From positions 7,896 through 71,895 of the forward strand of contig URTF01000001.1 in assembly GCA_900550695.1 (NCBI GenBank): a stretch of 64,000 nt of DNA. Reading direction: 5' to 3'. Positions 1,287 to 56,183 of the stretch are shown piece by piece. The position numbers and the translations under genes are program-made. This DNA comes from an uncultured Ruminococcus sp. (lineage in GTDB: Bacteria; Bacillota; Clostridia; Oscillospirales; Ruminococcaceae). Under the pieces are notes generated by a model, which saw nothing but the letters and a program-made list of their open reading frames with translations, ran no database searches and had not been told where the DNA came from. Within the stretch, counting starts at the first letter, position 1. Every line of letters begins with the position of its first letter.

Positions 1287-1315
1287 TTGACATATCTGTC
1301 AAAAAGGTATATAAT
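1287..1315 (+). promoter_or_regulatory. Consensus sigma-A promoter (TTGACA-17 nt-TATAAT) for putative antitoxin sRNA, copy 1
   Basis: TTGACA at 1287-1292 and TATAAT at 1310-1315, with an exact 17-nt spacer. Confidence 0.6.
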
Positions 1316-1321
1316 ATAAAC

Positions 1322-1411
1322 ATAAAGAGGGCATACCGATAGACGGTCGCTCCCGTGATTAAGTTAAAGAATAACCGTCACATTTAGAGCGTGGGGCGGT
1401 TATTTCTTTTT
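1322..1411 (+). ncRNA. Candidate ~90-nt antisense (antitoxin-like) sRNA, copy 1
   Basis: Runs from the consensus promoter to an intrinsic terminator (stem about 1370-1405, then T-run to 1411). Its 3' end overlaps the stop codon and 3' end of the minus-strand peptide ORF. It has no credible ORF of its own. Confidence 0.45.
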
Positions 1412-1486
1412 GTTATTGCTGTTCTGCACTAATTGTATTACAGCGCAAATAAGTAGTCCCAAGGTAAGTACCTCCATGACACCCAT
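1400..1486 (-). CDS. 28-aa hydrophobic peptide with lysine tail (MGVMEVLTLGLLICAVIQLVQNSNNKKK); candidate type I toxin
   Basis: ATG at 1486 lies 7 nt downstream of SD AAAGGGGG, and the TAA stop is at 1400-1402. Predicted single TM helix plus a KKK tail. It has its own consensus promoter, and a diverged paralogue lies 340 bp downstream. The ORF is below the ORF-track size cutoff. Confidence 0.5.
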   Translation of the reverse strand: MGVMEVLTLGLLICAVIQLVQNSNNKKK

Positions 1487-2803: not shown

Positions 2804-3277
2804 ATGAATAAAACAAACGCAATGCGGCAGCTTGAGACCGCAAAAATAAATTTCCGCACGGCTGAATATGAAGTTGACGAAAACGACCTCTCGGGCGTTC
2901 ACGTTGCAAAGGAACTCGGTCAGCCGCCCGAACAGGTATTTAAAACGCTCGTTTTAAAGGGCGAACGGACGGGATTTTTCGTCTGCTGCATACCCGTTGA
3001 CAAGGAGCTTGACCTCAAAAAAGCAGCGAAAGCCGCTCACGACAAGAAAGCCGAAATGCTTCCGCTGAAAGACCTTCTCCCGACGACGGGATATATCCGA
3101 GGCGGCTGTTCGCCTATCGGAATGAAGAAGAAATTCCCGACATTTATCGATGAAACGGCAATTCTTTTTGACGAAATAGCCGTCAGCGCAGGCATAAGGG
3201 GCGCACAGATAATCGTAAACGGCGAAACTCTTGCCGAATATCTCGGTGCAGAGCTTATCGATCTTGTTCAGGACTAA
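2804..3277 (+). CDS. ybaK: Cys-tRNA(Pro)/Cys-tRNA(Cys) deacylase YbaK
   Basis: 157 aa. N-terminal NAMRQLE, VFKTLV and GYIRGGCSPIG motifs are typical of YbaK/EbsC. Confidence 0.85.
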   Translation: MNKTNAMRQLETAKINFRTAEYEVDENDLSGVHVAKELGQPPEQVFKTLVLKGERTGFFVCCIPVDKELDLKKAAKAAHDKKAEMLPLKDLLPTTGYIRGGCSPIGMKKKFPTFIDETAILFDEIAVSAGIRGAQIIVNGETLAEYLGAELIDLVQD

Positions 3278-3305
3278 TACTGATTTTTAATCAAAGGGCA
3301 GAATT

Positions 3306-7859: not shown

Positions 7860-8540
7860 TTATTTTTCCGCCGCAAAACCAAACTGCTCCGCAAGTTCTT
7901 CCGCAGTCATTTTCCGATCAAAGACAATGCTTTTTATATCGAGTGCGGAAAGGATATTTTTCTCCCTTTTCCGTCTTTCTTCAAGACATTTTATGTAGCC
8001 GTCATATCCCGTCAGTCCGTTCTGCTTTCCGTAGCCCTGTGAAACGTGGTAGTCGATAACTGCGTTGAGCCAGTCGTTTCCGCGCTCGTCAAGAACTGCA
8101 TCTATGGCGGCTCGGACATTTGGTTGGTCGATATATACGATGACAGGGGAGAGCGGTTTTATTATTTCCGCTATCTCGCCGATGTACCGCCCGGAAGCCT
8201 TTTCGTCCATTCCGAAGCGCATCATCGTTTCGCACATAGGATTTTGCAGGAAGATACAGTTGAAAACGTACACGGTTTCATTGTCAGCATTTTTTACAAA
8301 CGAACGCCATTTTTCAAGTATCTTTTCACGCTCGGTTTCAAAGTCGGGAAAATCATAGTCGGCATAATCGGCAGGGTGGTCGGTTACGCCCTCATCGATG
8401 CACACGACCTTTGCTCCCTTTTTCTCAAGCTCCTGCGCTATCATAGCTGCGGTGGTGCTTTTTCCGCTGCCGGGAAGTCCCTCTGTTATTATAATACTAA
8501 ACACCAATAAAATACAGGAAAAAATCTGCGCCGAAATCAC
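7860..8540 (-). CDS. P-loop NTPase/kinase-like protein whose 5' end is interrupted by a MITE (possibly pseudogenised or re-initiated inside the element)
   Basis: Walker A motif GLPGSGKST is close to the N-terminus. The first ~15 codons of the called ORF (QIFSCILLVFS) are MITE sequence. The ancestral SD and TTG start lie at 8610-8624 on the other side of the element. Possible restarts are GTG 8504, TTG 8507 and GTG 8540. Confidence 0.55.
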   Translation of the reverse strand: MISAQIFSCILLVFSIIITEGLPGSGKSTTAAMIAQELEKKGAKVVCIDEGVTDHPADYADYDFPDFETEREKILEKWRSFVKNADNETVYVFNCIFLQNPMCETMMRFGMDEKASGRYIGEIAEIIKPLSPVIVYIDQPNVRAAIDAVLDERGNDWLNAVIDYHVSQGYGKQNGLTGYDGYIKCLEERRKREKNILSALDIKSIVFDRKMTAEELAEQFGFAAEK

Positions 8541-8594
8541 ATATATCCAAGATTGTCGGCTTGATTTTTTCCAAATTTTAAATGGTGTTTAGTA
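8495..8594. mobile_element. MITE-like palindromic element, copy A (100 bp, short form lacking the central loop)
   Basis: Termini TACTAAACACCA...TGGTGTTTAGTA, flanked by direct TAA/TAA. Homologous to copies at 19.1, 24.9 and 33.3 kb. Confidence 0.75.
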
Positions 8595-8812
8595 TAAGAT
8601 TTGTTTTCAAACTAACTCCTCCCCTCGTTGCTATGTTTATTTTATATCGTGCAAAGCCGAATGTCAAGCACACTCTTTGCACGATACATTTTTTCCGTTG
8701 CGAAAAGCAGATGTTTGTCAAAGTTATTTTACAAAATGACAATTTTTACCACATAGTTATTCTATAATTATATTGATGATATCTGCAGCACTAACGGAAA
8801 GGACGTATAAAT

Positions 8813-18958: not shown

Positions 18959-19116
18959 TGTTATCCCCCATTTAATAGTATTTATTAATATTATATTGCA
19001 TTTTTTAGAAAAAATCAAGAGGAAAAGGCAATAAATCTCAAAATAAAAATTGCAGTATGTTTTTTGACAGACTGCTGCGGATACAGAACCGTCGCTGCGT
19101 TTTATTAATACTAATA

Positions 19117-19233
19117 TACTAAACACCAATAAAATACAGGAAAAAATCTGCACCGAGATCCTATATAAACCTGTTAAAAACAGCTACAAGATTGTCGGCT
19201 TGATTTTTCCAAATTTTAAAATGGTGTTTAGTA
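19117..19233. mobile_element. MITE-like palindromic element, copy B (117 bp; 125 bp if an 8-bp terminal duplication from 19109 is included)
   Basis: Same termini and core as copies C and D. TAA/TAA flanks if the left end is taken at 19109. Confidence 0.75.
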
Positions 19234-21148: not shown

Positions 21149-21997
21149 TTACTGCCTGAGGGATCTCTGCCTTTGGAGGACACATTCCGCCGCGCGGTCG
21201 GATATTATCCCTCTGTCGCGCTCGGGATAGAATCCGAGCATCGGTGCAAGCAGGTCTTTTATCTGCGATTTTGTAAAGTGCGGAATATAAAGCTGCTGAC
21301 CGAACAAGGCTTCGGCACTTCGCATCTGACGTGTAAAGGTCGTGCCGAACGGTCGGGCAGTCACTGCGGAAATAAGCGCTTTCGGCTCGATATCCATTTG
21401 CGAAAGCTGCGTATTTGACAAAAGCGCAGCGCCGTTGTCAAATATCGGGCAGTAGGAATATTCCCCGTCCTCTTCAATGACCGCTATATTGTTAAGGTGG
21501 CGGTCGTCATTGAGGAAAAGCGCATCAACTTCAAAAATCAGCGTGAGGTATTCGGGAAAATGCACCAGTCCCGTGAACTCGGCTGTCTTTTCGGCAAGAA
21601 ATTGTATCCGCTTTTTGTCGCTGGAAAGGCGGCTCAGTTTTTCTTTTAGCGGTTCGTCAAGCACTCTGTTCAGCAGGTGGCTCAATGTTATTATCGACTG
21701 ATTTTTCGCAAGAAAATTCCTGCTTGAACAGCCTGTACGCCTGCGGTCATGGGCAAAAACGCTCTCCATTTCATAGCGCACAAAATCAAACGGCGTGTCG
21801 GCTTCGATATTGCTGAATTCAAGCATTGCGGAAACGGCGCACTCGCTCAATGCTTCATAGCCGAATTGGTCGAGCTTGAACCAGCGGTCGGAAGCTTCAT
21901 CATACCATTTTTCCTGATTGCCCTTTGATGAAGTTTCGGCGATTTTTTCATCGGTCGCAAAATATAGCTCCGTTACAGCTTTTCGATCTTTATCCAT
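21149..21997 (-). CDS. HipA-like Ser/Thr kinase core (short, HipT-like; lacks the HipA N-terminal subdomain)
   Basis: Gly-rich loop SSKGNQEKW near the N-terminus. Catalytic LNDDRHLNN and downstream PIFDNGAAL match HipA_C motifs. Only 282 aa. Confidence 0.7.
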   Translation of the reverse strand: MDKDRKAVTELYFATDEKIAETSSKGNQEKWYDEASDRWFKLDQFGYEALSECAVSAMLEFSNIEADTPFDFVRYEMESVFAHDRRRTGCSSRNFLAKNQSIITLSHLLNRVLDEPLKEKLSRLSSDKKRIQFLAEKTAEFTGLVHFPEYLTLIFEVDALFLNDDRHLNNIAVIEEDGEYSYCPIFDNGAALLSNTQLSQMDIEPKALISAVTARPFGTTFTRQMRSAEALFGQQLYIPHFTKSQIKDLLAPMLGFYPERDRGIISDRAAECVLQRQRSLRQ

Positions 21998-22589: not shown

Positions 22590-22949
22590 AAACGAGTGGA
22601 TATGGAATACGTCACGACAGAAATTTTTGGGTTATATTCATATCCGGTTGCCGTTCATTTTACGTTGAAACGCAAATGCACTCACTTCGTTCGTGTATTT
22701 GTGCTTCAAGGATAGTTATTCTGTAGATAAAGAATAGGCGCAATTCACATTTTTTAGGTTTACGAAACGGATTTCTCACATTCCGTTTTACCTTTTTGTG
22801 TGAATTGCGCCTTTTTATTTGTTACTGATTACGTTATTGCAACAACGCCTTAGCTGTTAGTTTAGGGAATTTCGCTCTCTGCGGAGAGCGACAAGGGACG
22901 CTGTCCCCTTGACCCCTGCAAGCCTTTAAAAAGGCTTGACCTAAACTTT
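22590..22949 (+). repeat. ~360-nt multi-hairpin repeat R, copy 1 (candidate structured ncRNA or 3'-UTR element)
   Basis: Homologous over its whole length to the reverse complement of 32450-32814. Contains a 13-bp-stem hairpin plus T-run at 22737-22816. Confidence 0.6.
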
Positions 22950-22988
22950 AGTTGGCTTCGCTTTGCCGAACAAATGTCAGCTATGCAA

Positions 22989-23021
22989 AATTACGCATTA
23001 CGAATTACGAATTACGCATTA
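22989..23021 (-). repeat. Heptamer array TAATGCGTAATTCGTAATTCGTAATGCGTAATT beginning with the helicase TAA stop codon
   Basis: Read directly on the minus strand. The stop codon is the first TAA of the array. Confidence 0.75.
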
Positions 23022-24755
23022 ATTATATTGTTTTCTTTTCTTATTCTGCGAGCCGTCAAATTTTCTTGCTCTGCCTGTATTTTTTCTGCGGAGGCTGCGG
23101 TAGTCCTTTTCGCCGCCCGAACGTCTGCGGTCGGAGCTGCCGTTTTGTCTGCCCTCGCTCTGCTTGCCCTCATAGCGCTTGATCTTTATCTTCTGACCGT
23201 TTATCTTCGTTCCCGTCATGGAATCGATGATATGGTCGAGGTCGGCTTCGGGGACTTCCACTGTTGTATAGCGGTCGTAGATATCGATCTTGCCGAAGTT
23301 TTTGCCTGCCATTCCCGTTGCGTCAACGAGTGCGCCGAGGATAAAGTTCGGTGCGATGCGGTTCTGTCTGCCGAGTGAGATCTCGATCTTGCAGGAGCTG
23401 CCCTTTGATCTGCCCTTTTCGTCACGTGGACGGAACACAGGCTTGATGAACTCGGGGACAGTGCGTGTTTCCTTGGAAATTCTCATTCCGAGGAGAGTTG
23501 CGGCGATCTGCTCCGCCGTAAAGCCACGCTCTGTAAGGCGTTCGAGAAGCTCTGCGCCGTTCGGATATTTCTCCGTTGTGGTATAGTCGCAGACTTTATC
23601 GAGAACCCGCTGTGTTTTCTTTTCGATAACGTCATCTCTTGTTGGGAGTTCGCAGCGGATAATATCAGCCTTTGTGAATCGTGCGATATCCTTAAGCTCG
23701 TAGACCTGCTTTCTGCCGCTCACTATCGTATAAGCCGAACCCGAACGACCTGCTCTGCCTGTTCGGCCGATACGGTGGATATAGTATTCATTGTCCTGCG
23801 GAATATCATAGTTGAAAACTGCATCGACATCGTCAACGTCGATGCCTCTTGCGGCAACGTCGGTCGCAATGAGGATATTTATTCTGCCGCTCTTGAAAGC
23901 GTTAAGCACCTGAGTTCTGCTCTGCTGCTTCATATCGCCGTGAAGACCTGCCGCTTTGAAACCCTTTGCAACGAGGTTTTCGGTAAGCTCATCTACCATT
24001 GCTTTTGTGTTGCAGAAAATCATCGAAAGCTTAGGCTCAAATGCGATAAGGAGCATCTGGAGCGCATCTGTCTTTCTTCCCATAGGAACTTCGTAATAGA
24101 ACTGCGCAACGCTCTCAACTGTGCGGCTTTTCTGCTCAACGCCGACAACGATCGGGTCACGCTGATATTCGCCCGTGATAGCCATTATCTGCGGCGGCAT
24201 TGTTGCCGAGAAAAGCACGGTCTGACGTTCTTCGGGGATATACTGCAAAATTTCTTCGATATCCTCACGGAAACCCATATTGAGCATCTCGTCAGCCTCG
24301 TCAAGAATCACCGAGCGGAGTTCTTCAAGGTGAAGCGTATGACGGCGGATATGATCCATTACACGTCCGGGAGTTCCGACAACGATATTTGCGCCCTTTT
24401 TGAGCTGAACTATCTGGCGTTCGATGTCAGCACCGCCGTAGATAGCGCAGGACTTTACATACGGAAGATATTTAGAGAATTTTTCGATTTCCTGCGAAGC
24501 CTGCATCGCAAGCTCTCTTGTCGGACAGAGTATGAGCGTTTGCACACGGCGATAGCCCTCAGGGTCTATCATTGCAACTGCGGGAAGTCCGAAAGCGGCT
24601 GTCTTTCCCGTACCCGTCTGCGAACGTCCCACAACGTCCTTTCCTTCGAGAAGAAGCGGAATGGCCTTAGCCTGAATTTCCGTAGCCTCCTCATATCCCA
24701 TTTCTTCGACCGCACGGACGATCTCCTGCGGCAATCCGAGTTCACTAAAAAGCAT
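23019..24755 (-). CDS. DEAD-box ATP-dependent RNA helicase with DbpA-type C-terminal RNA-binding domain and R/G/K-rich tail
   Basis: Q motif, AQTGTGKT-like GRSQTGTGKT, DEADEM, SAT and HRIGRTGRAG are present. The C-terminal IEISLGRQNRIAPNFILGAL fits a DbpA RBD. Start at MLFSELGL (ATG 24755). Confidence 0.9.
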   Translation of the reverse strand: MLFSELGLPQEIVRAVEEMGYEEATEIQAKAIPLLLEGKDVVGRSQTGTGKTAAFGLPAVAMIDPEGYRRVQTLILCPTRELAMQASQEIEKFSKYLPYVKSCAIYGGADIERQIVQLKKGANIVVGTPGRVMDHIRRHTLHLEELRSVILDEADEMLNMGFREDIEEILQYIPEERQTVLFSATMPPQIMAITGEYQRDPIVVGVEQKSRTVESVAQFYYEVPMGRKTDALQMLLIAFEPKLSMIFCNTKAMVDELTENLVAKGFKAAGLHGDMKQQSRTQVLNAFKSGRINILIATDVAARGIDVDDVDAVFNYDIPQDNEYYIHRIGRTGRAGRSGSAYTIVSGRKQVYELKDIARFTKADIIRCELPTRDDVIEKKTQRVLDKVCDYTTTEKYPNGAELLERLTERGFTAEQIAATLLGMRISKETRTVPEFIKPVFRPRDEKGRSKGSSCKIEISLGRQNRIAPNFILGALVDATGMAGKNFGKIDIYDRYTTVEVPEADLDHIIDSMTGTKINGQKIKIKRYEGKQSEGRQNGSSDRRRSGGEKDYRSLRRKNTGRARKFDGSQNKKRKQYN

Positions 24756-24947
24756 AATTTTTCCTTTCCATAACATGGCATTGGACAAAACACGCTCTCT
24801 GACAAAACTCTCCTGCCCTACGCCGACACATAATTATAATTTTTACAAAACAGAAATTAATTATAACACATTGCATAGCAAATTGTCAACTGCTTTTTTC
24901 TGTTATTTTTTTAATAAAAAAGCTTGTTCACGTTTAATGTAAACAAT

Positions 24948-25063
24948 ACTAAACACCAATAAAATAAAGGAAAAAATCTGCGCCGAAATCCTATATAAAC
25001 CTGTTTTCAACAGCTACGAGATTGTCGGCTTGATTTTTTCCAAATTTTAAATGGTGTTTAGTA
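24948..25063. mobile_element. MITE-like palindromic element, copy C (116 bp)
   Basis: Termini TACTAAACACCA/TGGTGTTTAGTA flanked by perfect 3-bp direct repeat CAA/CAA. Confidence 0.8.
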
Positions 25064-25088
25064 CAAGCGGTATTTTTTATCTTAAATT

Positions 25089-26087
25089 TTACAGTAAGTT
25101 ATATGCTCTCTGCATATTTATCTCCGAATACTCAACGCCTTTGGAGAAAAGCTTTGCACCGTTTATCCTGTCACGGAGCGTCAGAGCGCTGCTCTCATAA
25201 AGATAAGCGCCCCAGAACATCTTCACAGCCGAAACCGCAAAGTATGCAAAGTAAGCCTTTGAAACGATATCTCCGTCCGAGAGCGACTCGGGAAAATGTC
25301 GGAAAATAAAGTATTCCGCAAGCCGCCGCATTTCGTTTTCTGATGAAAAGTCGGTTTTATACTCGCCGCTTTCAAGCTTTTTCAGCATTTCGTCCCATTC
25401 GGGCGAGATGCTTTCCATTGCTTTGAGCACGGTGATAACTTCTTTGTCGGAAATTTCCTCTATGGCGAATGAATATCCCGAAAAATGCTCATACAATTCG
25501 GAAATCCCCGAAAAATCACTCTCCGCAAGCATATCCTGAGCATCTATCGCAAGCGCACAGCATTTTCTCAGTGCAATAAAAGGCTCATCACGCTCACAAA
25601 GCTTAAAAAGCATTTCACGTATCTGCAAAACGGCTTTTTCAAGCGCATTATCGGGAAAATCTGCTTCGGGAACGATATGTACAGGCTTTTCCTCGGTCAG
25701 AATTATTTCGGCGGCGGCTTCACAGCAAAGTCCGATGCCGATCTCCGTCCTGTCCGAAAGAAAGCTTCGGAAGCGTGGGTGGTCGGTGCATATTCCGCAG
25801 AGCGATTCTTCGCCGAGGGCAATGTAAAGGTCGCAGAGGTTCGAGCTGTTCAGAAAGGGGCATCGGTCATCTTCCGCAAGGATAAAATGTGCGCCGTCAC
25901 CGTCGATCGTGATGTTTTCGGAAAGGCGCTGACCTATTGCACCGCCAACGGAGCGGTATCTTCCGAGCGAATCTTCGTCAATACATATCTCCCAGCCTTG
26001 ACAGCAGGTATCACTGCATTTATCGGCAATGCATTTGAAGCGAGGGTAATAATCGGGGTAAAAAAGTCCGTTTCCGCCGTTCTGCAT
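25089..26087 (-). CDS. Cys-rich FliB-like protein (flagellin lysine-N-methylase family)
   Basis: N-terminal YPRFKCIADKCSDTCCQGWEICIDEDSLGRY matches the FliB/YkgJ-type cysteine cluster. Confidence 0.6.
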   Translation of the reverse strand: MQNGGNGLFYPDYYPRFKCIADKCSDTCCQGWEICIDEDSLGRYRSVGGAIGQRLSENITIDGDGAHFILAEDDRCPFLNSSNLCDLYIALGEESLCGICTDHPRFRSFLSDRTEIGIGLCCEAAAEIILTEEKPVHIVPEADFPDNALEKAVLQIREMLFKLCERDEPFIALRKCCALAIDAQDMLAESDFSGISELYEHFSGYSFAIEEISDKEVITVLKAMESISPEWDEMLKKLESGEYKTDFSSENEMRRLAEYFIFRHFPESLSDGDIVSKAYFAYFAVSAVKMFWGAYLYESSALTLRDRINGAKLFSKGVEYSEINMQRAYNLL

Positions 26088-26090
26088 AGC

Positions 26091-26366
26091 TTAAAGTCCC
26101 TTGCAGGTCTTGCTGTAAAGCACGAACGAGAGGATAACGCAGATTATCTGCGCAGCGTTGACGGAAAGCGTAAATCCGAACGCAAGCTTGAAAACGATGA
26201 GGTCAAGCACCAACGGGCTGTTCGTGTCCAGTCCGACAGACAGCGTGTAGGAAAGCCACGAAAGGTAAGGGACACCCTCGCAGATATTTCCGAGTATCGT
26301 TCCGAGTAAAATTCCTGCAAGAAGAAAAAAGAGAAATGCGATAGTGCGTTTTAAACCGCTGCTCAT
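26091..26366 (-). CDS. Small membrane protein (DUF4321-like)
   Basis: 91 aa with two TM segments. The motif LVLDLIVFKLAFGFTL is typical of the family. Confidence 0.55.
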   Translation of the reverse strand: MSSGLKRTIAFLFFLLAGILLGTILGNICEGVPYLSWLSYTLSVGLDTNSPLVLDLIVFKLAFGFTLSVNAAQIICVILSFVLYSKTCKGL

Positions 26367-27805
26367 GAGTTTGCTCCTTTATCGGTAATTTTTCTGAATG
26401 CAAAGCCGCAGAGTATCCAGAATATCGGTGCGCAGAGGACAGAGCTGAAGCTGAAAAAGCTTTGGATAATGTAAGCCGCAATAGCGACAAACATCGCAGT
26501 ATCCTGCCATTCGGCGCCCTTTATCGAAGCCTTGAACTTGCCGAATGAGCTTTTGAGCGAAGCTGCGAGGAAAACGGCAAATGCGGCAGCGGCAGGAATT
26601 CCTCGTGTTGCGGCAACATAAACGATCTCGTTGTAGCTTCGGTCGATAGAGCAAAGCGAAAGCGTGTCGTTCGCCATCTGGTATTTTGCCATAAGGTCGG
26701 GGCCTATACCAAAGAGCGTATGTTCCTTTATAAAGTACAGGCTCTTTTCAAGTCCGATGCCGTAAAGCGACTGAGCGTTTGCAACGGAGTAGTTCGTAAC
26801 GATATAAAGGCGGAAGAATGCGTCATAGTAAGCAATTGCCTTGTCACGGATATAAATGCCCTGGAATATCCATATCAGCGCAAAGATAACAGCCATTCCG
26901 ACAGCGACTGCAGCGTATCTGTAAACGGAGCTTTTAAGTATTCCGTTTTCAAACGCAGTCGGCTTTGAAGCGAAAATCATTATCGATACGATGACAAACA
27001 CCGCCGACATTCCTATTATCGGAACTATGGACGAAGTGAAGAAACCGACGAGCCAGAAAAGCATTGAAGCTGCACCGTAAATCCTTGCACGGAGGATATT
27101 TTTTTCATAGACCGCACCCGTTAAAGCTGCGGCGAATACGATAGTGAGGAACGTTCCGAAAACGATAGGATTTTCCGAAAGTCCGTGCGAAAGCATTACA
27201 TCTTTGAGTGCGACCGTTGGAAGATCGGCGAAGTTCGGCATAAAACGAAGCTTCGGGATATGCTGAAAAACTGCGAAAAGCGACTGTACAACGCCGACTG
27301 CGACGATAGTATCCATGATGATGCGAACCGTCTTTGTGCGTGTTACGCAGGCTGCAAGGCAGAAGATACCGAAGTAGCCGAGCAGTGAGAGCAGACCCTC
27401 ATATCGTCCTATCTCGCCTGCGAGCGCAGTGTTAACGACCTCAGAGGCAACATTCGGGCGGAGGACAACGCAGTAATACGAAGCGAACGCCCAGACCGCC
27501 ATAAAAACGATGAGCCAGAGTATCTTGTCTTTTTTGAACGAAAGGCAGCCCTTTATCATTGCGATAAGGAAGAAAAGTATGCAGGAAAATCCCGTGAAGT
27601 ACAGTCCCGCACTCATAAATGCAGGCGAAGCATTCACGCCGTAAACGAGGAATCCCGTTATCTGCGGTACGATAACGCAGGCTGCGAGCAGAGCCGCTAT
27701 CCAGTTCTGGAGCGTTTCCTGCTTCATATTTAGGATAAAGTTCGATTTGCTGGTTGTACCGAATATGGTTTTCGGCTGTTTTTTCGTCTGATTTGGTGTG
27801 TCCAT
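26363..27805 (-). CDS. O-antigen ligase-like (Wzy_C) polytopic membrane protein
   Basis: About 480 aa with more than 10 TM segments. ATG at 27805 has SD GGAG. 4-nt overlap with the downstream gene. Confidence 0.55.
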   Translation of the reverse strand: MDTPNQTKKQPKTIFGTTSKSNFILNMKQETLQNWIAALLAACVIVPQITGFLVYGVNASPAFMSAGLYFTGFSCILFFLIAMIKGCLSFKKDKILWLIVFMAVWAFASYYCVVLRPNVASEVVNTALAGEIGRYEGLLSLLGYFGIFCLAACVTRTKTVRIIMDTIVAVGVVQSLFAVFQHIPKLRFMPNFADLPTVALKDVMLSHGLSENPIVFGTFLTIVFAAALTGAVYEKNILRARIYGAASMLFWLVGFFTSSIVPIIGMSAVFVIVSIMIFASKPTAFENGILKSSVYRYAAVAVGMAVIFALIWIFQGIYIRDKAIAYYDAFFRLYIVTNYSVANAQSLYGIGLEKSLYFIKEHTLFGIGPDLMAKYQMANDTLSLCSIDRSYNEIVYVAATRGIPAAAAFAVFLAASLKSSFGKFKASIKGAEWQDTAMFVAIAAYIIQSFFSFSSVLCAPIFWILCGFAFRKITDKGANS

Positions 27806-27900
27806 AAATAAAACTCCATTCAGAAAAATATCCCTGCGATTTGCGCCGCAGGGATAATTATTGCTTTCGTGTTTACAGGCTGTAATATACACAATGTATA

Positions 27901-29463
27901 TTACTTAGCGTATTCAACTACGCGGCTTTCACGAATGATATTAACTTTGATCTGTCCGGGGTAGTCCATTTCGTCCTCGATACGCTTGGCAATATCTCTT
28001 GCAACAATGACCATCTTTTCATCGTTGATCTTGTCGGGATAAACCATGATGCGGACTTCACGGCCTGCCTGGATAGCGAAGGATTTTTCAACACCCTCAT
28101 AGGAGCAGCAGATCTCTTCGAGCTTTTCAAGACGCTTGATGTAGTTCTCGTAGTTCTCGCTTCTTGCGCCCGGTCTTGCCGCTGAAATAGCATCGGCAGC
28201 CTGAACGAGAGCAGCGACAACGGAGTGTATCTCAACATCGCCGTGGTGAGCCTCGACTGCGTGAATGACCTCAGGGCTTTCCTTGTACTTGCGGCAGACA
28301 TCAACGCCGATCTGGACGTGTGAACCCTCGATCTCGTAGCTGAGAGCCTTACCGATATCGTGGAGAAGTCCTGCTCTTCGTGCGAGGTTTGCGTCAACGC
28401 CAAGCTCGGAAGCCATAATTCCTGCGAGATGTGCGACCTCGATAGAATGGTTGAGTACGTTCTGGCGGTAGGAGGTTCTGTAATGAAGTCGTCCGAGGAG
28501 GCGTACAAGCTCGTGATTAAGACCGTGTACGTTGGTTTCGAGAACGGCTCTGTCACCCTCCTGCTTCATGATATGCTCGACTTCACGGCGAGCCTTGTCG
28601 ACCATTTCTTCGATACGGGACGGGTGGATCCTACCGTCTGCGATAAGCTTTTCAAGTGCGATACGGGCAACCTCACGGCGAGCCTGATCGAAGCAGGAAA
28701 GCGTGATAGCTTCGGGTGTATCGTCGATGATAAGGTCAACGCCCGTGAGCGTTTCGAGTGCCTTTATGTTTCTGCCCTCACGTCCGATGATCCTGCCCTT
28801 CATTTCGTCATTCGGCAGAGGAACAACGGAAACTGCAGATTCGGATACCTGATCTGCGGAGCATTTTGAAATTGCAAGGGAAATAAGATTTCTTGCCTTT
28901 TCCTCACATTCGTCCCTGAGCTGCTGCTCATAAGACTGTATCTTGAGAGCCTTTTCATGTACAAGCTCATTTTCGAGCATTGAAAGCAGGTGTTCCTTAG
29001 CCTGATCCATAGTGAACTGTGAGATCTTTTCGAGGGTTTCCATCTGCTGCTTTTTGATATTGTCGGCTTCTTCAAGCTTTTCGTCAGCCTGCTTGATCTT
29101 TTTCTGGAGTATTTCGTCCTTTTTATCAAGGCTGTCGTTCTTTTTGTCGAGATTGTCTTCCTTCTGCTGGATCCTGCGCTCCTGACGGGAAATTTCTCCG
29201 CGGCGCTCTTTGAGTTCCTTATCAAGCTCGGAACGGCTCTTCTGGATCTCCTCCTTTGCATCGAGAAGTGCGATCTTTTTTTGATTTTCTGCTTCTGTCT
29301 TTGCTGCTTCGACAAGTCTTTCGGCTTCCTTTTCCGCCGAACCTATCGCTGCCTCGGCCTGCTTTTTGCGGTGGTTTATACCTGCGGCGAAGAATATCGC
29401 TCCACCGACAGCGAAGCCTGCAATAAGCGCAATGACAGCCGCAATGATAGCTGCTGTGTTCAA
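27901..29463 (-). CDS. rny: Ribonuclease Y
   Basis: N-terminal TM, long K/E coiled coil, KH domain ([11 protein letters not shown]) and HD domain (LLHDIGKA). TTG start with SD GGGGAGG. Confidence 0.92.
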
Positions 29464-29691
29464 GTCCTTGACCTCCCCAAAATTATATTATCGCTCGGAG
29501 GGCCTGAACGAGAGGATTTCACATTCCGCAGTAAGAATTTCTCTGCGAAAACGGTGAAAAACGAAAATATCCCTGCCTTTCTCAATACTTTAAACGTTTA
29601 AGCCGAACCGTTTGCAAAAAACGATATCAGCCGAGTAAAACGCCGAAGCGGCAGAGAGATATGTTATCGTTACCCCGAATATTATCCTCAA

Positions 29692-29720
29692 TTGACAATT
29701 TTCACTACATAACGTATAAT
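29692..29720 (+). promoter_or_regulatory. Orphan perfect sigma-A promoter (TTGACA-17-TATAAT) with no obvious downstream gene
   Basis: Hexamers at 29692-29697 and 29715-29720. The next 350 nt on the plus strand lack a credible RBS-preceded ORF. Confidence 0.5.
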
Positions 29721-30124
29721 TTTATCCGAAAAATACAATCTGTAAAGAATAACTGAACCCATAAAACGGGTTTGATAATGATAATGAATATATGAAACCT
29801 CTGTTCAAAGCGACAGAGCGAGTGAAAAATGAACTGCAATTTATCAAGCCGGCACCGTTCGCCGTCAAAAGACCATTCCGCATAAGCGAGCAGAACAGCG
29901 TATGAACCGCATACGGCAGCCGCCTTAGTGACAAACCTGCGAGCCTTTTTATCGGCAGGCAGAATTACCTCATATTGCATTTACTTTATTATTGTAATAT
30001 AAATCATTAATAATGTCAAGGTTATTTTAACATTTTCACACTTTTTAATAAGAAAAAAGCCTCTTAACTGTGAAAAAAGACGATTGACAAATTCCGAGAA
30101 GTGTGATAACATAAACACATAATA

Positions 30125-30375
30125 ACATAAAAACGTTGATAAAGGAAGGCAACCCTCCGTTGAGGACTTTCAGAGAGCGGCAGTCATCGGCTGAAAACTG
30201 CGGCAGGTTCGGGAGCTTTGCACACCGCCTTTTGAGTGCGCTCAATCTGCGCCGTCAGCCTGCGTTAAAGGCATTAATGAGGTGTGTTTTTCAGGGAAAA
30301 GCGCATAAATTAAGGTGGAAACACGGTTTTTATCGTCCTTAGTGCTTGTAAAAAAGCGTTAAGGACGTTTTTGTT
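30125..30375 (+). promoter_or_regulatory. T-box riboswitch leader of thrS (probable Thr ACC specifier about 30224-30226) with terminator at about 30335-30375
   Basis: AGAGA box, T-box sequence aaattaaGGTGGaaACacGG at about 30308-30326, and terminator stem cgtccttag/ttaaggacg plus TTTTT. Candidate promoter TTGACA at 30084. Confidence 0.75.
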
Positions 30376-30442
30376 TTCTTAAAAAGGATAAAAAACGAAT
30401 TTTATGTTAAAATTACTATAATATATGTGGAGGTAAACGAAA

Positions 30443-32389
30443 ATGGTAAAGCTCACACTTAAAGACGGAAGCGTTAAGGAATGTGAAAAGGGCACAGCCG
30501 CAGCAGATGTTATCAAGGGCATCGGAATGGGTCTTTATAAGGCTGCATGTGCTGTAAAGCTCGGCGGAAAGGTATGCGATATCCGCACACCTATTGAAGA
30601 GGACTGCGAATTTGAAGTTCTCACATTCGATTCCGAAGACGGCAAAAAGACTTTCAACCACACAGCATCGCATATCCTTGCTCAGGCTGTAAAGCGCCTT
30701 TACCCCGAGGTAAAGCTTGCTATCGACCCTGCAATTCAGGATGGATTCTACTACGATTTCGATGCGCCTAAAGCATTCACACCCGATGACCTCGCAAAGA
30801 TCGAAGCCGAGATGAAGAAGATCGCCAAGGAGGGCATCGAGCTTGAAAAGTTCGAGCTTTCCCCCGAGGAAGCTATCAAGAAGCTTGAAGAAATGGGCGA
30901 ACCTTATAAAGTCGAACTCTGTCGGGAACACGCAGGCAAGGGCGAACCTATCTCATTCTATAAGCAGGGTGACTTCATCGACCTCTGCGCAGGTCCTCAC
31001 CTCGCTTCGACTGCTCCTGTAAAGGCTGTAAAGCTTCTCTCCTGTACAGGTGCTTACTGGAGAGGCGACTCAAAGGGCAAGCAGCTCTGCCGTGTTTACG
31101 GTACAGCATTCCCCAAGGCAAGCGAACTCGAAGCATACCTCGCAGCAAGAGAAGAAGCTCAGAAGCGTGACCACAACAAGCTCGGCCGTGAGCTTGAATA
31201 TTTCACAACGGTTGACTGCATCGGTCAGGGACTTCCCGTTCTTCTTCCAAAGGGCGCAAAGGTTATCCAGATACTTCAGCGCTGGGTAGAAGATGTTGAA
31301 GCTTCAAAGGGCTGTATGCTCACAAAAACTCCGCTTATGGCAAAGCGTGACCTCTATAAAATTTCGGGACACTGGGATCACTACCTTGATGGTATGTTTA
31401 TCCTCGGCGACCCTTACGATGAGGAAAAGGAATGTTTCGCACTCCGTCCGATGACCTGCCCGTTCCAGTATCAGGTATACCTCAACCGTGCAAGATCGTA
31501 CCGTGATCTCCCAATGCGTCTTACCGAAACCTCCACACTTTTCAGAAATGAGGACAGCGGCGAAATGCACGGTCTTATCCGTGTCCGTCAGTTCACAATT
31601 TCCGAGGGTCACTATATCCTTCGCCCCGAACAGCTCGAAGATGAGTTCAGAGGCTGCCTTGAGCTTGCAAAGTATATGCTCGATACAGTAGGACTTCTCG
31701 AGGACTGCACATTCAGATTCTCCCAGTGGGACCCCGCAAACCCGAAGAATAAGTACGAGGGTACAGCGGAACAGTGGGAACACGCTCAGTCCGCAATGAA
31801 AACTATCCTCGACGACCTCGGCGTTGAATATTCTATCGGTATCGACGAAGCCGCATTCTATGGCCCTAAGCTCGATATCCAGTATAAGAACGTATTCGGC
31901 AAGGAAGATACACTCGTAACTATCCAGATCGATATGCTCCTCGCAGAAAAGTTCGGTATGGAATATACCGATGTTGACGGCAAGAAGCGCAGACCTTATA
32001 TCATCCACAGAACATCACTCGGCTGCTATGAGCGTACACTCGCATACCTCATCGAAAAGTATGCAGGCGTGTTCCCGCTCTGGCTCGCTCCCGAGCAGGT
32101 AAGAATTCTCCCTATCGGCGAAGCTCATCAGGCTTATGCTCAGGAGATCGCAGATAAGATCACAGCACACGGAATGAGAGTAACTGTCGATAAGCGTGAC
32201 GAAAATATCGGTACAAAGATCAAGGCATCACGTCTTGAAAGAATCCCATATACCTTTATCATCGGCGATAAGGAAACAGAAAACAAGTCCGTTACTATCC
32301 GCTCGAGAAAAGAGGGCGAGCTTCCCGACGTTAAAATTGACGAAGCACTCGCTAAGATCTTTGAGGAGAATGATACTAAGGCAAAATAA
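30443..32389 (+). CDS. thrS: Threonine--tRNA ligase
   Basis: 648 aa with TGS, editing (HTASHILA), class II core and anticodon-binding domains. Confidence 0.95.
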   Translation: MVKLTLKDGSVKECEKGTAAADVIKGIGMGLYKAACAVKLGGKVCDIRTPIEEDCEFEVLTFDSEDGKKTFNHTASHILAQAVKRLYPEVKLAIDPAIQDGFYYDFDAPKAFTPDDLAKIEAEMKKIAKEGIELEKFELSPEEAIKKLEEMGEPYKVELCREHAGKGEPISFYKQGDFIDLCAGPHLASTAPVKAVKLLSCTGAYWRGDSKGKQLCRVYGTAFPKASELEAYLAAREEAQKRDHNKLGRELEYFTTVDCIGQGLPVLLPKGAKVIQILQRWVEDVEASKGCMLTKTPLMAKRDLYKISGHWDHYLDGMFILGDPYDEEKECFALRPMTCPFQYQVYLNRARSYRDLPMRLTETSTLFRNEDSGEMHGLIRVRQFTISEGHYILRPEQLEDEFRGCLELAKYMLDTVGLLEDCTFRFSQWDPANPKNKYEGTAEQWEHAQSAMKTILDDLGVEYSIGIDEAAFYGPKLDIQYKNVFGKEDTLVTIQIDMLLAEKFGMEYTDVDGKKRRPYIIHRTSLGCYERTLAYLIEKYAGVFPLWLAPEQVRILPIGEAHQAYAQEIADKITAHGMRVTVDKRDENIGTKIKASRLERIPYTFIIGDKETENKSVTIRSRKEGELPDVKIDEALAKIFEENDTKAK

Positions 32390-32449
32390 ATTTGCCTCGC
32401 TAAGTAAATTATCCTCGGCTAAGCAAAAGGTTTAGCTATGCAAAAAAAT

Positions 32450-32814
32450 AAAGTTTACGTCCACGCTTTTCAAAGGGTGGCAGGGGTCAAGGGGACGGAG
32501 TCCCATTGTCGCTCTCCGCAGAGAGCGAAATTCCCCAAACTGACAGCATAACCGCCGGTTGCAATAGCGAAATCAGCAGCAAATAAAAAGGCGCAATTCA
32601 CACCAAAACGTAAAACAGAACGTGAGAAATCAGTTTTGTAAACATTAAAAATGTGAATTGCGCCCATTCTGTTTTCCTAAAACAAACTGTCCTCTGACAG
32701 CAAATATACGAACGAAGTGAGCATATTTGCTGTCAGACATAATATGAACAGCTATGGAAAATGACTGCGAACCATACAGTTTGCGCTATGATATGATTTC
32801 ATATCCGTCCGTTT
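32450..32814 (-). repeat. ~365-nt multi-hairpin repeat R, copy 2 (inverted relative to copy 1)
   Basis: Its reverse complement aligns with 22590-22949 (roughly 75-80 percent by eye). The shared 13-bp hairpin is at 32590-32664. Confidence 0.6.
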
Positions 32815-32865
32815 GAGCAATAATTATTCATTGAAACTATAACCTGTACAAAGTGAGGGATAACT

Positions 32866-33315
32866 ATGATCGAATACAAAAAGCTTACGGAAAAAGAGCT
32901 TGACCGCTTTATCGAAATGCGGATAGCGCAGCTCCGTGAGGAGGGCGCAAAGGAGGATATCGACCTGCGCCCTGCGCTGAGAGATTATTACGAACGCCAC
33001 ATAAAGGACGGGACCTTCGTTTCGTGGCTCGCTTTTGACGGGGACGAAATTATCGGCACAAGCGGAATGTCGTTCGTAGAAAAGCCGCCGTATTTCGGCT
33101 GTCCGAGCGGCAGGATCGGCTTGCTTTCGAGTATGTTCACCGACAGCCGCTACAGAAGAAAGGGCATTGCGACCGAGCTTTTAAACCGTGTTATCAGCGA
33201 GGCGCGAAGCTACGGCTGCGGAACGGTGCAGATAACCGCTTCCGATATGGGCGTGAAGCTTTATTCTTCGTATGGCTTTGTGCATAATGAGAATTTTATG
33301 CAGTTTAAAATTTAA
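32866..33315 (+). CDS. GNAT family N-acetyltransferase
   Basis: 149 aa. Acetyl-CoA motif RRKGIATELL and C-terminal YSSYGF. Confidence 0.8.
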   Translation: MIEYKKLTEKELDRFIEMRIAQLREEGAKEDIDLRPALRDYYERHIKDGTFVSWLAFDGDEIIGTSGMSFVEKPPYFGCPSGRIGLLSSMFTDSRYRRKGIATELLNRVISEARSYGCGTVQITASDMGVKLYSSYGFVHNENFMQFKI

Positions 33316-33328
33316 CACATAATACTAA

Positions 33329-33445
33329 TACTAAACACCAATAAAATACAGGAAAAAATCTGCGCCGAAATCGCATATAAACCTGTTAAAAACAGCTACA
33401 AGATTATCGGCTTGATTTTTTCCAAATTTTAAATGGTGTTTAGTA
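33329..33445. mobile_element. MITE-like palindromic element, copy D (117 bp)
   Basis: Same termini as the other copies. Flanked by TAA/TAA. Confidence 0.8.
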
Positions 33446-44391: not shown

Positions 44392-44396
44392 GAAAA

Positions 44397-44427
44397 ATTC
44401 GGAATTCGGAATGAGGAATTCGGAATT
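44397..44427 (+). repeat. AATTCGG-type short tandem repeat just after the degV stop
   Basis: aattcggaattcggaatgaggaattcggaatt. Related in form to the TAAT(G/T)CG arrays. Confidence 0.6.
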
Positions 44428-44585
44428 ATTTATATTCTGCATATTTGTCACGAAAACCTTAATTCCGTAGGGGCGGATTCCATATCCGCCAGTTGCAAGC
44501 CCTTTATTTTAGGCAAAGTTTCTGTATGGGACGTGTTTCCCGTCCCAATTTGCGAAACGATTTTCGGCAGCAATTATTCACAAAG

Positions 44586-48316: not shown

Positions 48317-48338
48317 ATATTCTAACGAAACAGCGAAG

Positions 48339-48376
48339 CTAATTACGCATTACGCATTACGAATTACGCATTATCA
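48339..48376 (-). repeat. Heptamer array TGATAATGCGTAATTCGTAATGCGTAATGCGTAATTAG starting at the pncB stop
   Basis: Read directly on the minus strand. It forms an inverted repeat with 48204-48235. Confidence 0.75.
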
Positions 48377-51594: not shown

Positions 51595-51618
51595 AAATTT
51601 TCATCTCCATAGAGATAA

Positions 51619-51752
51619 TACTAATTTTTAATCAAAGTGTAGACAAAAAATCGGCGCAAAATCCATTTAAACCTGTTTTCAACATCAAGCTGTTTTCAAC
51701 AGCTACGAGATTTTGCTTGATTTTTTGTACACTTTCAGTTTATAAATTAGTA
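51619..51752. mobile_element. MITE-like element, divergent subfamily copy E (134 bp), inserted between rsmD and coaD
   Basis: Shares the termini TACTAA/TTAGTA and the core aaacctgttttcaacagctacgagatt with copies B-D. The arm sequences differ but remain self-complementary. Confidence 0.65.
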
Positions 51753-56107: not shown

Positions 56108-56183
56108 AAAAAGGCGCAATTCACATAATAGATTGAACGAATCAGGTTTCGTAAACCTTAAAATGTGAATTGCGCCTTTTTTT
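56108..56183. terminator. Bidirectional terminator that is a third copy of the repeat-R hairpin (stem GGCGCAATTCACA/TGTGAATTGCGCC)
   Basis: 13-bp stem identical to those at 22737-22811 and 32590-32664. About 38-nt loop containing aggtttacgaaac. Flanked by an A-run and a T-run. Confidence 0.7.

What the first reader, a model, noticed from the sequence alone, without database searches (positions are those of the whole stretch)
33329..33445. Undescribed-looking MITE family: five copies in 64 kb with long hairpin potential and 3-bp target duplications
Copies lie at 8495-8594 (100 bp), 19117-19233, 24948-25063, 33329-33445 and, as a divergent subfamily, 51619-51752.

All copies begin TACTAA(ACACCA) and end (TGGTGT)TTAGTA. 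The two arms are complementary almost end to end, for example ggaaaaaatctgcgccgaaatc against gattgtcggcttgattttttcc. They surround a conserved core, aaacctgtt(aaaa/ttc)aacagctac(a/g)agatt, which itself contains a ctgtt/aacag mini-hairpin.

The flanking trinucleotides are direct repeats: TAA/TAA (copy A), CAA/CAA (copy C) and TAA/TAA (copy D). Copy B gives TAA/TAA if its left end includes an 8-bp terminal duplication starting at 19109. Copy E gives TAA/TAG. That pattern indicates transposition with a 3-bp TSD, not replication slippage.

No transposase gene is in the window, so the elements are non-autonomous. The A-run/hairpin/T-run layout means each copy could also act as a bidirectional terminator or an RNA stability element. 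The element also creates an artefactual peptide (QIFSCILLVFS) in two ORF-track entries.
Basis: seen in the sequence. Interest (0 to 1): 0.62.

Follow-up and report, generated by a model that had tools for sequence, protein, structure and literature searches.

The report
IS630-derived hairpin MITEs, gut Oscillospiraceae
The five repeats are real, recently mobile miniature transposons (MITEs) that have lost their transposase gene and borrow one from an IS630-family insertion sequence found in related gut bacteria: a well-known kind of element, here in a family I could not find described.

Summary
There are five copies, at 8495-8594, 19117-19233, 24947-25063, 33329-33445 and 51619-51752. Their ends are TACTAA...TTAGTA, they fold end to end, and they carry 3-nt flanking direct repeats.

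The MITE interpretation is supported, and three window copies now have empty sites in relatives. Copy A has a single TTA, copy C a single TTG (=CAA), and copy E a single CTA. Two further sites are empty in the window but filled in relatives.

The autonomous partner is not IS5/ISL2-like. It is an IS630-family insertion sequence of about 1.07-1.14 kb, with an HTH OrfA, a DDE_3 OrfB and an A7 frameshift site. Its first 18 nt are the same and its first ~30 nt are similar. None lies in the window.

The duplication is T-N-A (3 bp), not the canonical IS630 TA. Three copies of a cyanobacterial relative show the same pattern.

The family occurs in many uncultured Ruminococcus/Oscillospiraceae/Acutalibacteraceae genomes and in two viral contigs. 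The 100-bp form is the most common. A 17-bp loop module varies from 0 to 3 copies in situ. Copy A interrupts a coding sequence.

One point is unexplained: in the short MITEs the central base of the duplication is almost perfectly locked to element orientation.

Any terminator or RNA role is untested. Verdict: a new member of a known kind, of moderate interest.

The parts
8495..8594 (+). Copy A, the 100-bp form with no loop module. TSD TAA at 8492-8494 and 8595-8597. It lies inside the 5' end of a minus-strand P-loop NTPase CDS, separating the native RBS and TTG start plus 5 codons (8598-8625) from the rest of the gene (7860-8492).
   Evidence: The empty site in L227/L226 reads 'aaatcTTAtaataac', with an intact 215-aa gene P0135 at 95% identity.
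19117..19233 (+). Copy B, the 117-bp form with one 17-bp loop module. Flanks ATA/TAA. It is preceded at 19106-19116 by TAATACTAA+TA, a footprint-like partial end. It is intergenic, about 160 bp upstream of the real start (MKKIV...) of the minus-strand gene and upstream of yabP.
24947..25063 (+). Copy C, the 117-bp form, with TSD CAA/CAA. It is inserted in the ascending arm of the terminator hairpin of the upstream minus-strand operon, 58 bp from the consensus promoter of the DEAD-box helicase gene.
   Evidence: The empty site at L129:10757-10761 reads 'ccgcTTGtttac'.
33329..33445 (+). It is preceded at 33320-33328 by TAATACTAA, which reads as TSD + TAC + TSD (footprint-like). It lies between the GNAT gene stop (33315) and the terminator and tRNA-Arg(CCG) on the minus strand.
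51619..51752 (+). Copy E, the 134-bp form with two loop modules, from a different subfamily (ends TACTAATTTTT.../...AAATTAGTA). Flanks TAA/TAG. It is intercistronic, 6 nt after the rsmD stop and 24 nt before the coaD ATG on the minus strand.
   Evidence: [quoted passage not shown] Its ends resemble the IS that carries P0071.
3278..3302 (+). Solo fragment resembling the left end of the E subfamily (TACTGATTTTTAATCAAAGGGCAGA). It is preceded by TAA, which is the stop codon of the tRNA_edit-domain gene, and it fills the 28-nt spacer to the next ORF.
   Evidence: (repeat D20; 25 of 28 identical to 51616-51643)
21150..21152 (.). Unoccupied TTA target in the window. The same site is filled by a 117-bp MITE in a related strain.
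   Evidence: L127:1303-1419 is filled ('ggtTTA[MITE]TTAGTATTActg'). The window reads 'ggtTTActg'.
24843..24845 (.). Unoccupied TTA target in the window. The same site is filled by a 100-bp-class MITE in a strain about 96% identical.
   Evidence: L129:1932-2034 is filled ('attttTTA[TAATAAACACC...GTTTAGTA]TTAcaaac'). The window reads 'atttTTAcaaaac'.

Best explanation
The five copies are non-autonomous miniature inverted-repeat transposable elements. Each consists of little more than the two ~30-bp terminal inverted repeats of an IS630-family insertion sequence joined by a short loop.

I infer that they are moved in trans, by cut-and-paste, by the OrfAB transposase of that IS. OrfA is an HTH protein and OrfB carries a DDE_3 domain; the two are probably fused by a -1 frameshift on an A7 run. 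The IS is present in related Oscillospiraceae genomes but not in this window.

Insertion goes into T-N-A, mostly TAA/TTA in AT-rich spacers, and duplicates all three bases.

Shown here: the repeat family, the hairpin potential, the 3-bp duplication with empty sites, insertion polymorphism between close strains, and an IS630-family IS with identical termini.

Inferred: trans-mobilisation by that transposase, and the chemistry. The TSD+TAC+TSD motifs next to some copies look like mariner-type excision footprints followed by reinsertion, which would imply 5' cleavage 3 nt inside the element.

Consequences are incidental. Copy A splits a coding sequence. Copy C splits a terminator stem. Copy E adds a stable hairpin inside the rsmD-coaD operon.
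For: Family and significance:
- 8 hits of the 12-mer against 0.09 expected.
Most are in uncultured Ruminococcus/Oscillospiraceae/Acutalibacteraceae MAGs, with a minority of single chance-looking matches in unrelated taxa.
- Those loci plus the window give 44 complete copies, 41 with identical 3-nt flanks. After adding more loci, 69 of 81 distinct insertions have identical flanks: TAA 40, TTA 27, TGA 1, TTG 1.

Empty sites:
- Copy A, copy C, copy E.
- Reciprocal cases, empty in the window and filled in relatives.

Partner IS:
- L022 carries a truncated IS with a TACTAAACACCA end next to a DDE_3 ORF.
- L206-L215 carry a 1128-bp IS with ends TACTAAACACCAATTAAACTATAGAC / TACTAAACACCATTTAAAAGCAGGA.
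- L125 carries a 1072-bp IS with TACTAAACACCATTTAAA at both ends and TAA/TAA flanks.
- L118 (TTA/TTA) and L122 (TAA/TAA) are further examples.
- The fused OrfAB scores 227.8 bits on NF033545, IS630 family transposase, against a cutoff of 100. The A7 slippery run is visible.

T-N-A duplication as a clade trait: Acaryochloris relatives at ~39% identity have TACC...GGTA ends flanked by TGA/TGA, TAA/TAA and TCA/TCA.

Recent activity:
- 100-bp copies from different MAGs, which the genome collection treats as different species, are on average 97% identical per column.
- Many contigs break inside the element.
- Metagenome word depth over the MITE is 80-350 times that of its flanks.
Against: - No transposase lies in the 64-kb window. 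I could not show that the partner IS is present in this very genome.
- No transposition was observed directly.
- The TSD is 3 bp (T-N-A), not the canonical TA of IS630.
- Flanks of the full-length IS in short metagenome contigs are often discordant, probably from chimeric assembly, so IS-level TSDs rest on few clean cases.
- Copy E (TAA/TAG, empty site TAG) fits a 3-bp duplication only with one later substitution. It would fit a TA duplication plus one element-borne A without any substitution.
Confidence: 0.9

Rival explanations
1. The copies are Tourist-like MITEs of an IS5-family parent (ISL2, IS1031 or IS427 group) or a PIF/Harbinger-like parent, as the first reader suggested from the TAA/TTA 3-bp duplication.
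For: A 3-bp TWA/TNA duplication is what I recall for those groups (my own knowledge, not tested here). TAA and TTA dominate the flanks.
Against: Every full-length element found with these termini encodes HTH + DDE_3 proteins that score as IS630 family. No IS5-type (DDE_Tnp_1) element with TACTAA ends was seen. IS630-family relatives in Acaryochloris show the same T-N-A duplication.
Confidence: 0.03
2. The hairpins are conserved host regulatory elements, such as bidirectional terminators or RNA-stability hairpins. On this view they are vertically inherited at fixed loci and are not mobile DNA.
For: The folds are very stable on both strands. An A-run/T-run flanks the inner stem. Several copies lie at gene ends.
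Against: Presence/absence polymorphism with exact 3-bp duplications occurs at five sites between strains 92-100% identical in neighbouring genes. One copy lies inside a CDS. The termini are identical to those of an IS. The terminator scan does not call them. Covariation is not above control, with 1 compensatory pair and 47 of 500 shuffles as high. No Rfam family matches.
Confidence: 0.03
3. The elements move as single strands or by site-specific recombination, in the manner of IS200/IS605-type PATEs, REP/RAYT or IS110/IS607. One 'TAA' would belong to the element, which would explain why the flank is orientation-locked.
For: In the short subfamilies the central base is locked to orientation. 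Subfamily 1 end-1 is flanked by TAA in 41 of 47 cases and never by TTA. End-2 is flanked by TTA in 44 of 45. Subfamily 2 shows 7/7 and 8/8, and subfamily 3 shows 10/10.
Against: Off-consensus flanks co-vary on both sides (CAA/CAA, TGA/TGA, TCA/TCA), and empty sites carry exactly one copy of the trinucleotide. The ends are perfect terminal inverted repeats shared with a DDE transposon. No RAYT, TnpA(Y1), serine or DEDD recombinase was associated with any copy.
Confidence: 0.04

Closest known systems
RUP (repeat unit of pneumococcus) and IS630-Spn1 in Streptococcus pneumoniae
   Same: A ~100-bp AT-rich MITE whose terminal inverted repeats pair into one tight hairpin. It has TIRs like those of a resident IS630-family IS, which is proposed to move it in trans. 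It is present at ~110 copies and occasionally disrupts genes (PMC3049150, PMC3184786).
   Different: The host clade differs (Oscillospiraceae versus Streptococcus). The duplication is T-N-A (3 bp); from memory, RUP and IS630 duplicate TA. A 17-bp loop module is variable in copy number. The copies appear recently active across many species, whereas RUP is described as largely dormant.
IS630 family insertion sequences (IS630 / Tc1 / mariner superfamily)
   Same: The partner transposase matches NF033545 over 295 of 299 model positions, with HTH + DDE_3 architecture. After the first TA, the element continues CTAAAC..., like the IS630 end CTAAATAGC quoted in PMC11544213.
   Different: The terminal TA is part of the element, because it is absent from empty sites. 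The duplicated target is T-N-A rather than TA. The transposase is encoded as two ORFs with an A7 frameshift site.
Correia elements (CREE/NEMIS) of Neisseria
   Same: Hairpin-forming MITEs of ~100-160 bp at high copy number, with length variants produced by an internal segment. They insert near genes and can affect transcripts (PMC3184786).
   Different: The termini are unrelated. The TA duplication is from memory. No autonomous partner is known for Correia, whereas one is identified here.
Tourist / mPing-type MITEs (PIF/Harbinger; IS5-related)
   Same: They have a 3-bp TAA/TTA target duplication; the mPing direct repeat TAA is quoted in PMC6042816.
   Different: The transposase superfamily differs. 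Here the partner is IS630-family, not IS5/Harbinger.

Membership tests
Bacterial MITE | Small (<~300 bp) with no coding capacity | tested here: met
   Copies are 100-134 bp in the window and 49-158 bp across the family. ORF overlaps are read-through artefacts or a gene interruption.
Bacterial MITE | Terminal inverted repeats | tested here: met
   A perfect 12-bp TIR, TACTAAACACCA/TGGTGTTTAGTA, in copies A-D, with arms paired almost end to end.
Bacterial MITE | Target-site duplication verified against empty sites | tested here: met
   Empty sites with a single trinucleotide were found for copies A, C and E, plus two reciprocal sites. 69 of 81 insertions have identical 3-nt flanks.
Bacterial MITE | An autonomous element with the same TIRs encoding a transposase | tested here: met
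   ISs of 1072-1136 bp with TACTAA... ends were found. Two of them carry the exact TACTAAACACCA termini (L125, L206).
IS630-family derivative | Partner transposase belongs to the IS630 family (HTH + DDE_3) | tested here: met
   NF033545 scores 227.8 bits against a cutoff of 100. PF13358 DDE_3 gives E=3e-16. HTH_23/28/29/33 hit OrfA.
IS630-family derivative | TA dinucleotide target duplicated (canonical for IS630/Tc1/mariner) | tested here: not met
   The duplication is 3 bp, T-N-A. The terminal TA of TACTAA is absent from empty sites. The same T-N-A pattern occurs in three copies of an Acaryochloris IS630-family IS. This is therefore a variant subgroup, not the canonical behaviour.
IS630-family derivative | Transposase actually mobilises the MITE | not testable with these tools
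   This needs a transposition assay.
   All full-length elements with these termini are IS630-family.
IS200/IS605-derived PATE or REP/RAYT | No target duplication; subterminal hairpins rather than TIRs; Y1 transposase or RAYT partner | tested here: not met
   True duplications co-vary on both sides (CAA/CAA, TGA/TGA, TCA/TCA). The ends are perfect TIRs and the partner is a DDE transposase.
RUP of S. pneumoniae | Sequence similarity to the RUP consensus or to the IS630-Spn1 TIRs | not tested
The resemblance is architectural only.
Any Rfam RNA family | Covariance-model match at gathering score | tested here: not met
   Only tRNA-Arg was found in the window.

The most novel reading that the evidence does not exclude
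In the short hairpin MITEs the central base of the T-N-A duplication is almost perfectly tied to element orientation. The counts are 41/47 and 44/45 in subfamily 1, with 7/7, 8/8 and 10/10 in the two others. Full-length ISs with the same termini, and the 157-bp subfamily, show no such lock.

This could mean the flanking trinucleotide is inherited from the donor site. The excised MITE might carry donor-flank overhangs that must pair with the new target, as in piggyBac-like seamless transposition. Alternatively, short MITEs might integrate through an intrinsically asymmetric or single-strand hairpin intermediate.

Copy E fits a carry-over model without needing a mutation: its flanks are TAA/TAG and its empty site is TAG.
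Probability: 0.12. Interest if true: 0.65.

Novelty: new member of a known kind. Interest (0 to 1): 0.4.

Why it matters
For annotation, the family explains a recurrent ~100-134-bp hairpin in uncultured gut Oscillospiraceae. It breaks assemblies, since many contigs end inside it. It also creates spurious ORF extensions, and at copy A it interrupts a gene.

Its insertion polymorphism between strains more than 92% identical makes it a usable strain marker. It is also a likely contributor to rearrangements: an 8.4-kb inversion has both breakpoints within tens of bases of copies C and D.

For transposon biology, it gives a well-populated natural data set for an IS630 subgroup that duplicates T-N-A rather than TA. 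That data set includes footprint-like scars and an unexplained orientation lock, both of which can be tested in a simple transposition assay.

Tried and rejected
- An Rfam gathering scan of the window found only tRNA-Arg.
- Literature searches for the terminal sequence, for MITEs in Ruminococcus, and for IS630 with TAA/TNA/3-bp duplications found no description of this family or of a T-N-A rule.
- Nezha/ISNpu3 was considered as an analogue and dropped. Its direct repeat is quoted as 10 bp.
- A search of the 102 genome loci for TACTAA...TTAGTA pairs 250-4000 bp apart found only pairs of separate MITEs. The IS was found instead through a truncated copy in L022.
- RNA evidence was uninformative. 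The available RNA-like runs are low-depth contigs with no coverage across copy C and ambiguous multi-copy signal at copy D.
- The covariation test on 20 distinct 100-bp copies lacked power. They are 97% identical, with one compensatory pair.
- The consensus terminator and promoter scan did not flag the copies, apart from one weak 9/12 promoter-like site in copy D.
- The site of copy B could not be compared, because its left flank is not syntenic in the relatives fetched.
- The site of copy D could not be compared cleanly because of the inversion.
- A TA duplication plus one element-borne base was considered. It explains the orientation lock and copy E. It was judged less likely because the third flank base is A in 36 of 36 subfamily-1 copies and N varies (G, A, C) in the Acaryochloris copies.

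Full report
**1. Observation.**
The 12-mer TACTAAACACCA occurs eight times, once at each end of copies A-D, against 0.09 expected from shuffles. A profile built from the five copies finds only these five in the window.

Copies A-D are 89-100% alike. A is 100 bp. B-D are 117 bp because of a 17-bp insertion in the loop that forms the CTGTT...AACAG mini-hairpin. E is 134 bp, with two such modules and different termini: TACTAATTTTT... and ...AAATTAGTA.

All copies fold end to end. As DNA the z-scores are -4.3 for B and -7.9 to -9.6 for the others. As RNA, both strands of A and D give -8.0 to -9.4. All five lie on the + strand.

**2. The family outside the window.**
Most are from uncultured Ruminococcus, Oscillospiraceae and Acutalibacteraceae MAGs. 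A minority are single, chance-looking matches in unrelated taxa. Many contigs end inside the element.

Among 44 complete copies, the 100-bp form dominates (26) and the 117-bp form comes next (5).

Several subfamilies share only the first ~18 nt and differ internally. All keep arm-to-arm complementarity.

Twenty distinct 100-bp copies from different MAGs are on average 97% identical per column. The genome collection holds one genome per species, so these are treated as different species. RNase Y in related loci drops to 73-84% protein identity. This points to recent spread rather than old vertical inheritance.

Word depth over the MITE in four metagenomes is 80-350 times that of the flanking single-copy DNA. 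This is a rough upper bound on copies per genome, because co-resident species may also carry the element.

Two predicted viral contigs carry complete copies: L108 (100 bp) and L107 (117 bp).

**3. Target duplication and empty sites.**
41 of 44 complete copies, and 69 of 81 distinct insertions after more loci were added, have identical 3-nt flanks. The counts are TAA 40, TTA 27, TGA 1 and TTG (=CAA) 1.

Empty sites were found for three window copies.
- Copy A: L227/L226 read gaggggaggagttagtTTGaaaacaaatcTTAtaataacagag. The window's minus strand has ...aaatcTTA[MITE]TTAtaataac....
- Copy C: L129 reads ccgcTTGtttac where the window's minus strand has ccgcTTG[MITE]TTGtttac.
- Copy E: among strains with an identical CoaD protein, L232 has a 26-nt rsmD-coaD spacer (TCCTATCTCTATGGAG...). 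Nine other loci and the window have the element there.

There are also reciprocal cases. The window is empty at 21150-21152, while L127 carries a 117-bp copy there. The window is empty at 24843-24845, while L129 carries a copy there.

In every case the terminal TA of TACTAA is absent from the empty site. The element boundaries and a 3-bp duplication are therefore established.

**4. The autonomous partner.**
One unpaired terminus (L022) abuts a DDE_3 ORF with the IS630-type ...PPYTPEMNPIEQIW motif. Its homologues are ~166-aa OrfB proteins that follow a ~160-177-aa HTH OrfA on contigs of ~1.1 kb.

Full elements are as follows.
- L206-L215: 1128 bp, with ends TACTAAACACCAATTAAACTATAGACAA and TACTAAACACCATTTAAAAGCAGGATAA.
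- L125: 1072 bp, with TACTAAACACCATTTAAA at both ends and TAA/TAA flanks.
- L118: 1136 bp, TTA/TTA. L122: 1108 bp, TAA/TAA.
- The IS carrying P0071 (1108 bp) has ends TACTATTTTTCAATAAAAAGTAGACAAA and TACTAATTTTCAATTAAAAC. These resemble copy E and the solo fragment at 3278-3302.

The MITE arms match the IS ends over ~30 nt. Subfamily 1 (copies A-D) looks like the right end on both arms. Another subfamily looks like the left end on both arms.

The two ORFs overlap at an A7 run, which suggests a -1 frameshift. The fused protein scores 227.8 bits on NF033545, 'IS630 family transposase', against a cutoff of 100 and covering 295 of 299 model positions. No such gene lies in the window.

**5. T-N-A versus TA.**
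Canonical IS630/Tc1/mariner elements duplicate TA. That is established knowledge, and IS630's own end is quoted as CTAAATAGC... in PMC11544213. Here the sequence after the first TA is CTAAAC..., yet the TA belongs to the element and T-N-A is duplicated.

This is not peculiar to the MITE. An Acaryochloris IS630-family IS (~39% identical transposase, also two ORFs) has TACC...GGTA ends. In three copies from complete plasmids, its flanks are TGA/TGA, TAA/TAA and TCA/TCA. I found no paper describing this rule. ISfinder was not available, so I cannot say it is unrecorded.

An alternative reading is a TA duplication plus one element-borne A. It fits the empty sites equally well, and it fits copy E (TAA/TAG, empty site TAG) without a mutation. 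It does not explain two things:
- The third flank base is A in 36 of 36 subfamily-1 copies.
- N varies in the Acaryochloris copies.

**6. Two unexplained or inferred features.**
(a) Orientation lock. Viewed from each end, subfamily-1 end-1 is preceded by TAA in 41 of 47 cases and never by TTA. End-2 is preceded by TTA in 44 of 45. Two other short subfamilies show 7/7, 8/8 and 10/10.

The full-length IS with the same termini and the 157-bp subfamily show mixed N (IS flanks from short contigs may be chimeric). The extended target is only weakly asymmetric, with A at +4 in 21 of 36. I have no tested explanation for the lock.

(b) Footprint-like scars. Copy D is preceded by TAA-TAC-TAA. Copy B is preceded by TAATACTAA+TA. 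These are the only TAATACTAA occurrences in the window apart from the junctions themselves. Four other copies in other genomes have T-N-A+TAC directly before the left duplication. L127 has the mirror image, TTA-GTA-TTA, as six extra bases relative to the window's empty site.

This is what excision with 5' cuts 3 nt inside the element would leave, as I recall for mariner, if it were followed by reinsertion into the regenerated T-N-A. That is inference. The enrichment is modest: TAC ties with GAT as the commonest trinucleotide at that position, 6 of 81 each.

**7. Loop module.**
At the copy E site, the same insertion occurs with 0, 1, 2 or 3 copies of the 17-bp module in different strains. Element lengths are 100, 117 and 134 bp. 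The 3-module allele and one 2-module allele also carry an 11-nt deletion of the right terminus. Module number therefore changes in place, presumably by slippage. Length classes are not separate insertion events. Terminal deletions show copies becoming immobile.

**8. What each window copy does locally.**
- Copy A interrupts a P-loop NTPase CDS after codon 5. The native RBS and TTG start now lead into a stop inside the MITE. The body of the gene stays open into the MITE, which is the source of the '...QIFSCILLVFS' peptide. An intact 215-aa orthologue exists at 95% identity. One metagenome strain lacks 8092-8691 altogether.
- Copy B is intergenic. The ORF extension there is an artefact, and the true start is MKKIV....
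- Copy C splits the ascending arm of a terminator hairpin, 58 bp from a perfect TTGACA-18-TATAAT promoter.
- Copy D lies between convergent 3' ends, those of the GNAT gene and of tRNA-Arg.
- Copy E lies between rsmD and coaD, 11 nt upstream of the coaD Shine-Dalgarno sequence.

**9. RNA or terminator role.**
This role is not supported, and it is not excluded as a side effect.
- The simple terminator scan does not call the copies.
- There is no Rfam match.
- Covariation is not above control.
- The RNA-like runs were too thin and too multi-mapped to show transcript ends.

**10. Comparison and novelty.**
The closest described analogue is RUP/IS630-Spn1 of S. pneumoniae (PMC3049150, PMC3184786). 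Like RUP, this is a ~100-bp tightly folded MITE with IS630-type TIRs. It differs in host clade, in the T-N-A duplication, in the variable loop module and in signs of recent activity.

I file it as a new member of a known kind. The T-N-A rule and the orientation lock are the only aspects that might interest a transposon specialist.

**11. Limits.**
- The host genome is known only as a MAG-like window. It is identical to GCA_900772515.1 in three flanking proteins and in the four 400-nt flanks of copies C and D.
- Co-occurrence of the IS with the MITE in that genome is unproven.
- All mechanistic statements are inferred from sequence.

Noticed in passing
window 25064-33328 (between copies C and D): This 8.4-kb segment (332-aa gene ... 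RNase Y ... ThrRS, GNAT) is inverted relative to the DEAD-helicase side in related strains L126, L127 and L129 (92-96% identical). The same is seen in metagenome contigs, with joints 24839<->33451, 24843<->33315 and 24921<->33317 on opposite strands. Both breakpoints lie within tens of bases of copies C and D, yet both copies have intact duplications in the window. The cause is unresolved.
   Followed up: partly
window 22640-23000 and 32400-32760; also 56113-56177: A second multi-copy composite repeat occurs in inverted copies. It contains a long hairpin, AAAAAGGCGCAATTCACA...TGTGAATTGCGCCTTTTT, and a GGGGACGGAGTCCC...CTCTCCGCAGAGAGCG motif. Metagenome depth there is about 25 times that of the flanks.
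   Followed up: no
window 22989-23035, 48327-48373, 44396-44428: Short tandem heptamer arrays, AATTACG(C/A) and AATTCGG, lie in intergenic DNA (repeat D4).
   Followed up: no
window 1281-1419 and 1620-1758: A tandem duplicate of a ~339-bp unit. Each copy has a consensus TTGACA...TATAAT promoter, a conserved ~60-nt stretch and a terminator-like hairpin. This may be a pair of small RNAs or leaders. There was no Rfam hit at gathering score.
   Followed up: no
window 3275-3305: The 28-nt spacer between the tRNA_edit-domain gene stop and the next ORF consists of TAA plus a 25-nt fragment of the E-subfamily MITE end. The fragment includes the purine-rich stretch just before the ATG.
   Followed up: partly
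L126:14382-14548; L233 and L235:2236-2398 (absent in L232 and others): Another hairpin repeat, (TACTAA)GAACCTGTCTTCA...TGAAGACAGGTTC(TTAGTA), is insertion-polymorphic between strains. In L126 it ends in TTAGTA+TAA, so it probably belongs to the same TACTAA superfamily.
   Followed up: partly
L108:7086-7185 and L107:5995-6111 (IMG/VR contigs of 46.6 and 114 kb): Complete MITE copies with TAA/TAA flanks sit in predicted viral or proviral contigs. These are a possible vehicle for spread between species.
   Followed up: no
window 8092-8691: One metagenome strain (run X10) replaces this 600-bp stretch with 24 unrelated bases. The stretch holds the 5' part of the interrupted NTPase gene plus copy A. 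The locus therefore appears to be decaying or dispensable.
   Followed up: no
L035:3622-3689: A nested insertion: an element with a TACTAATTCC... end sits in the TAA of another copy's ATTTAAA arm (TACTAAACACCATT-TAA-TACTAATTCC...). The elements therefore target one another's AT-rich arms.
   Followed up: no
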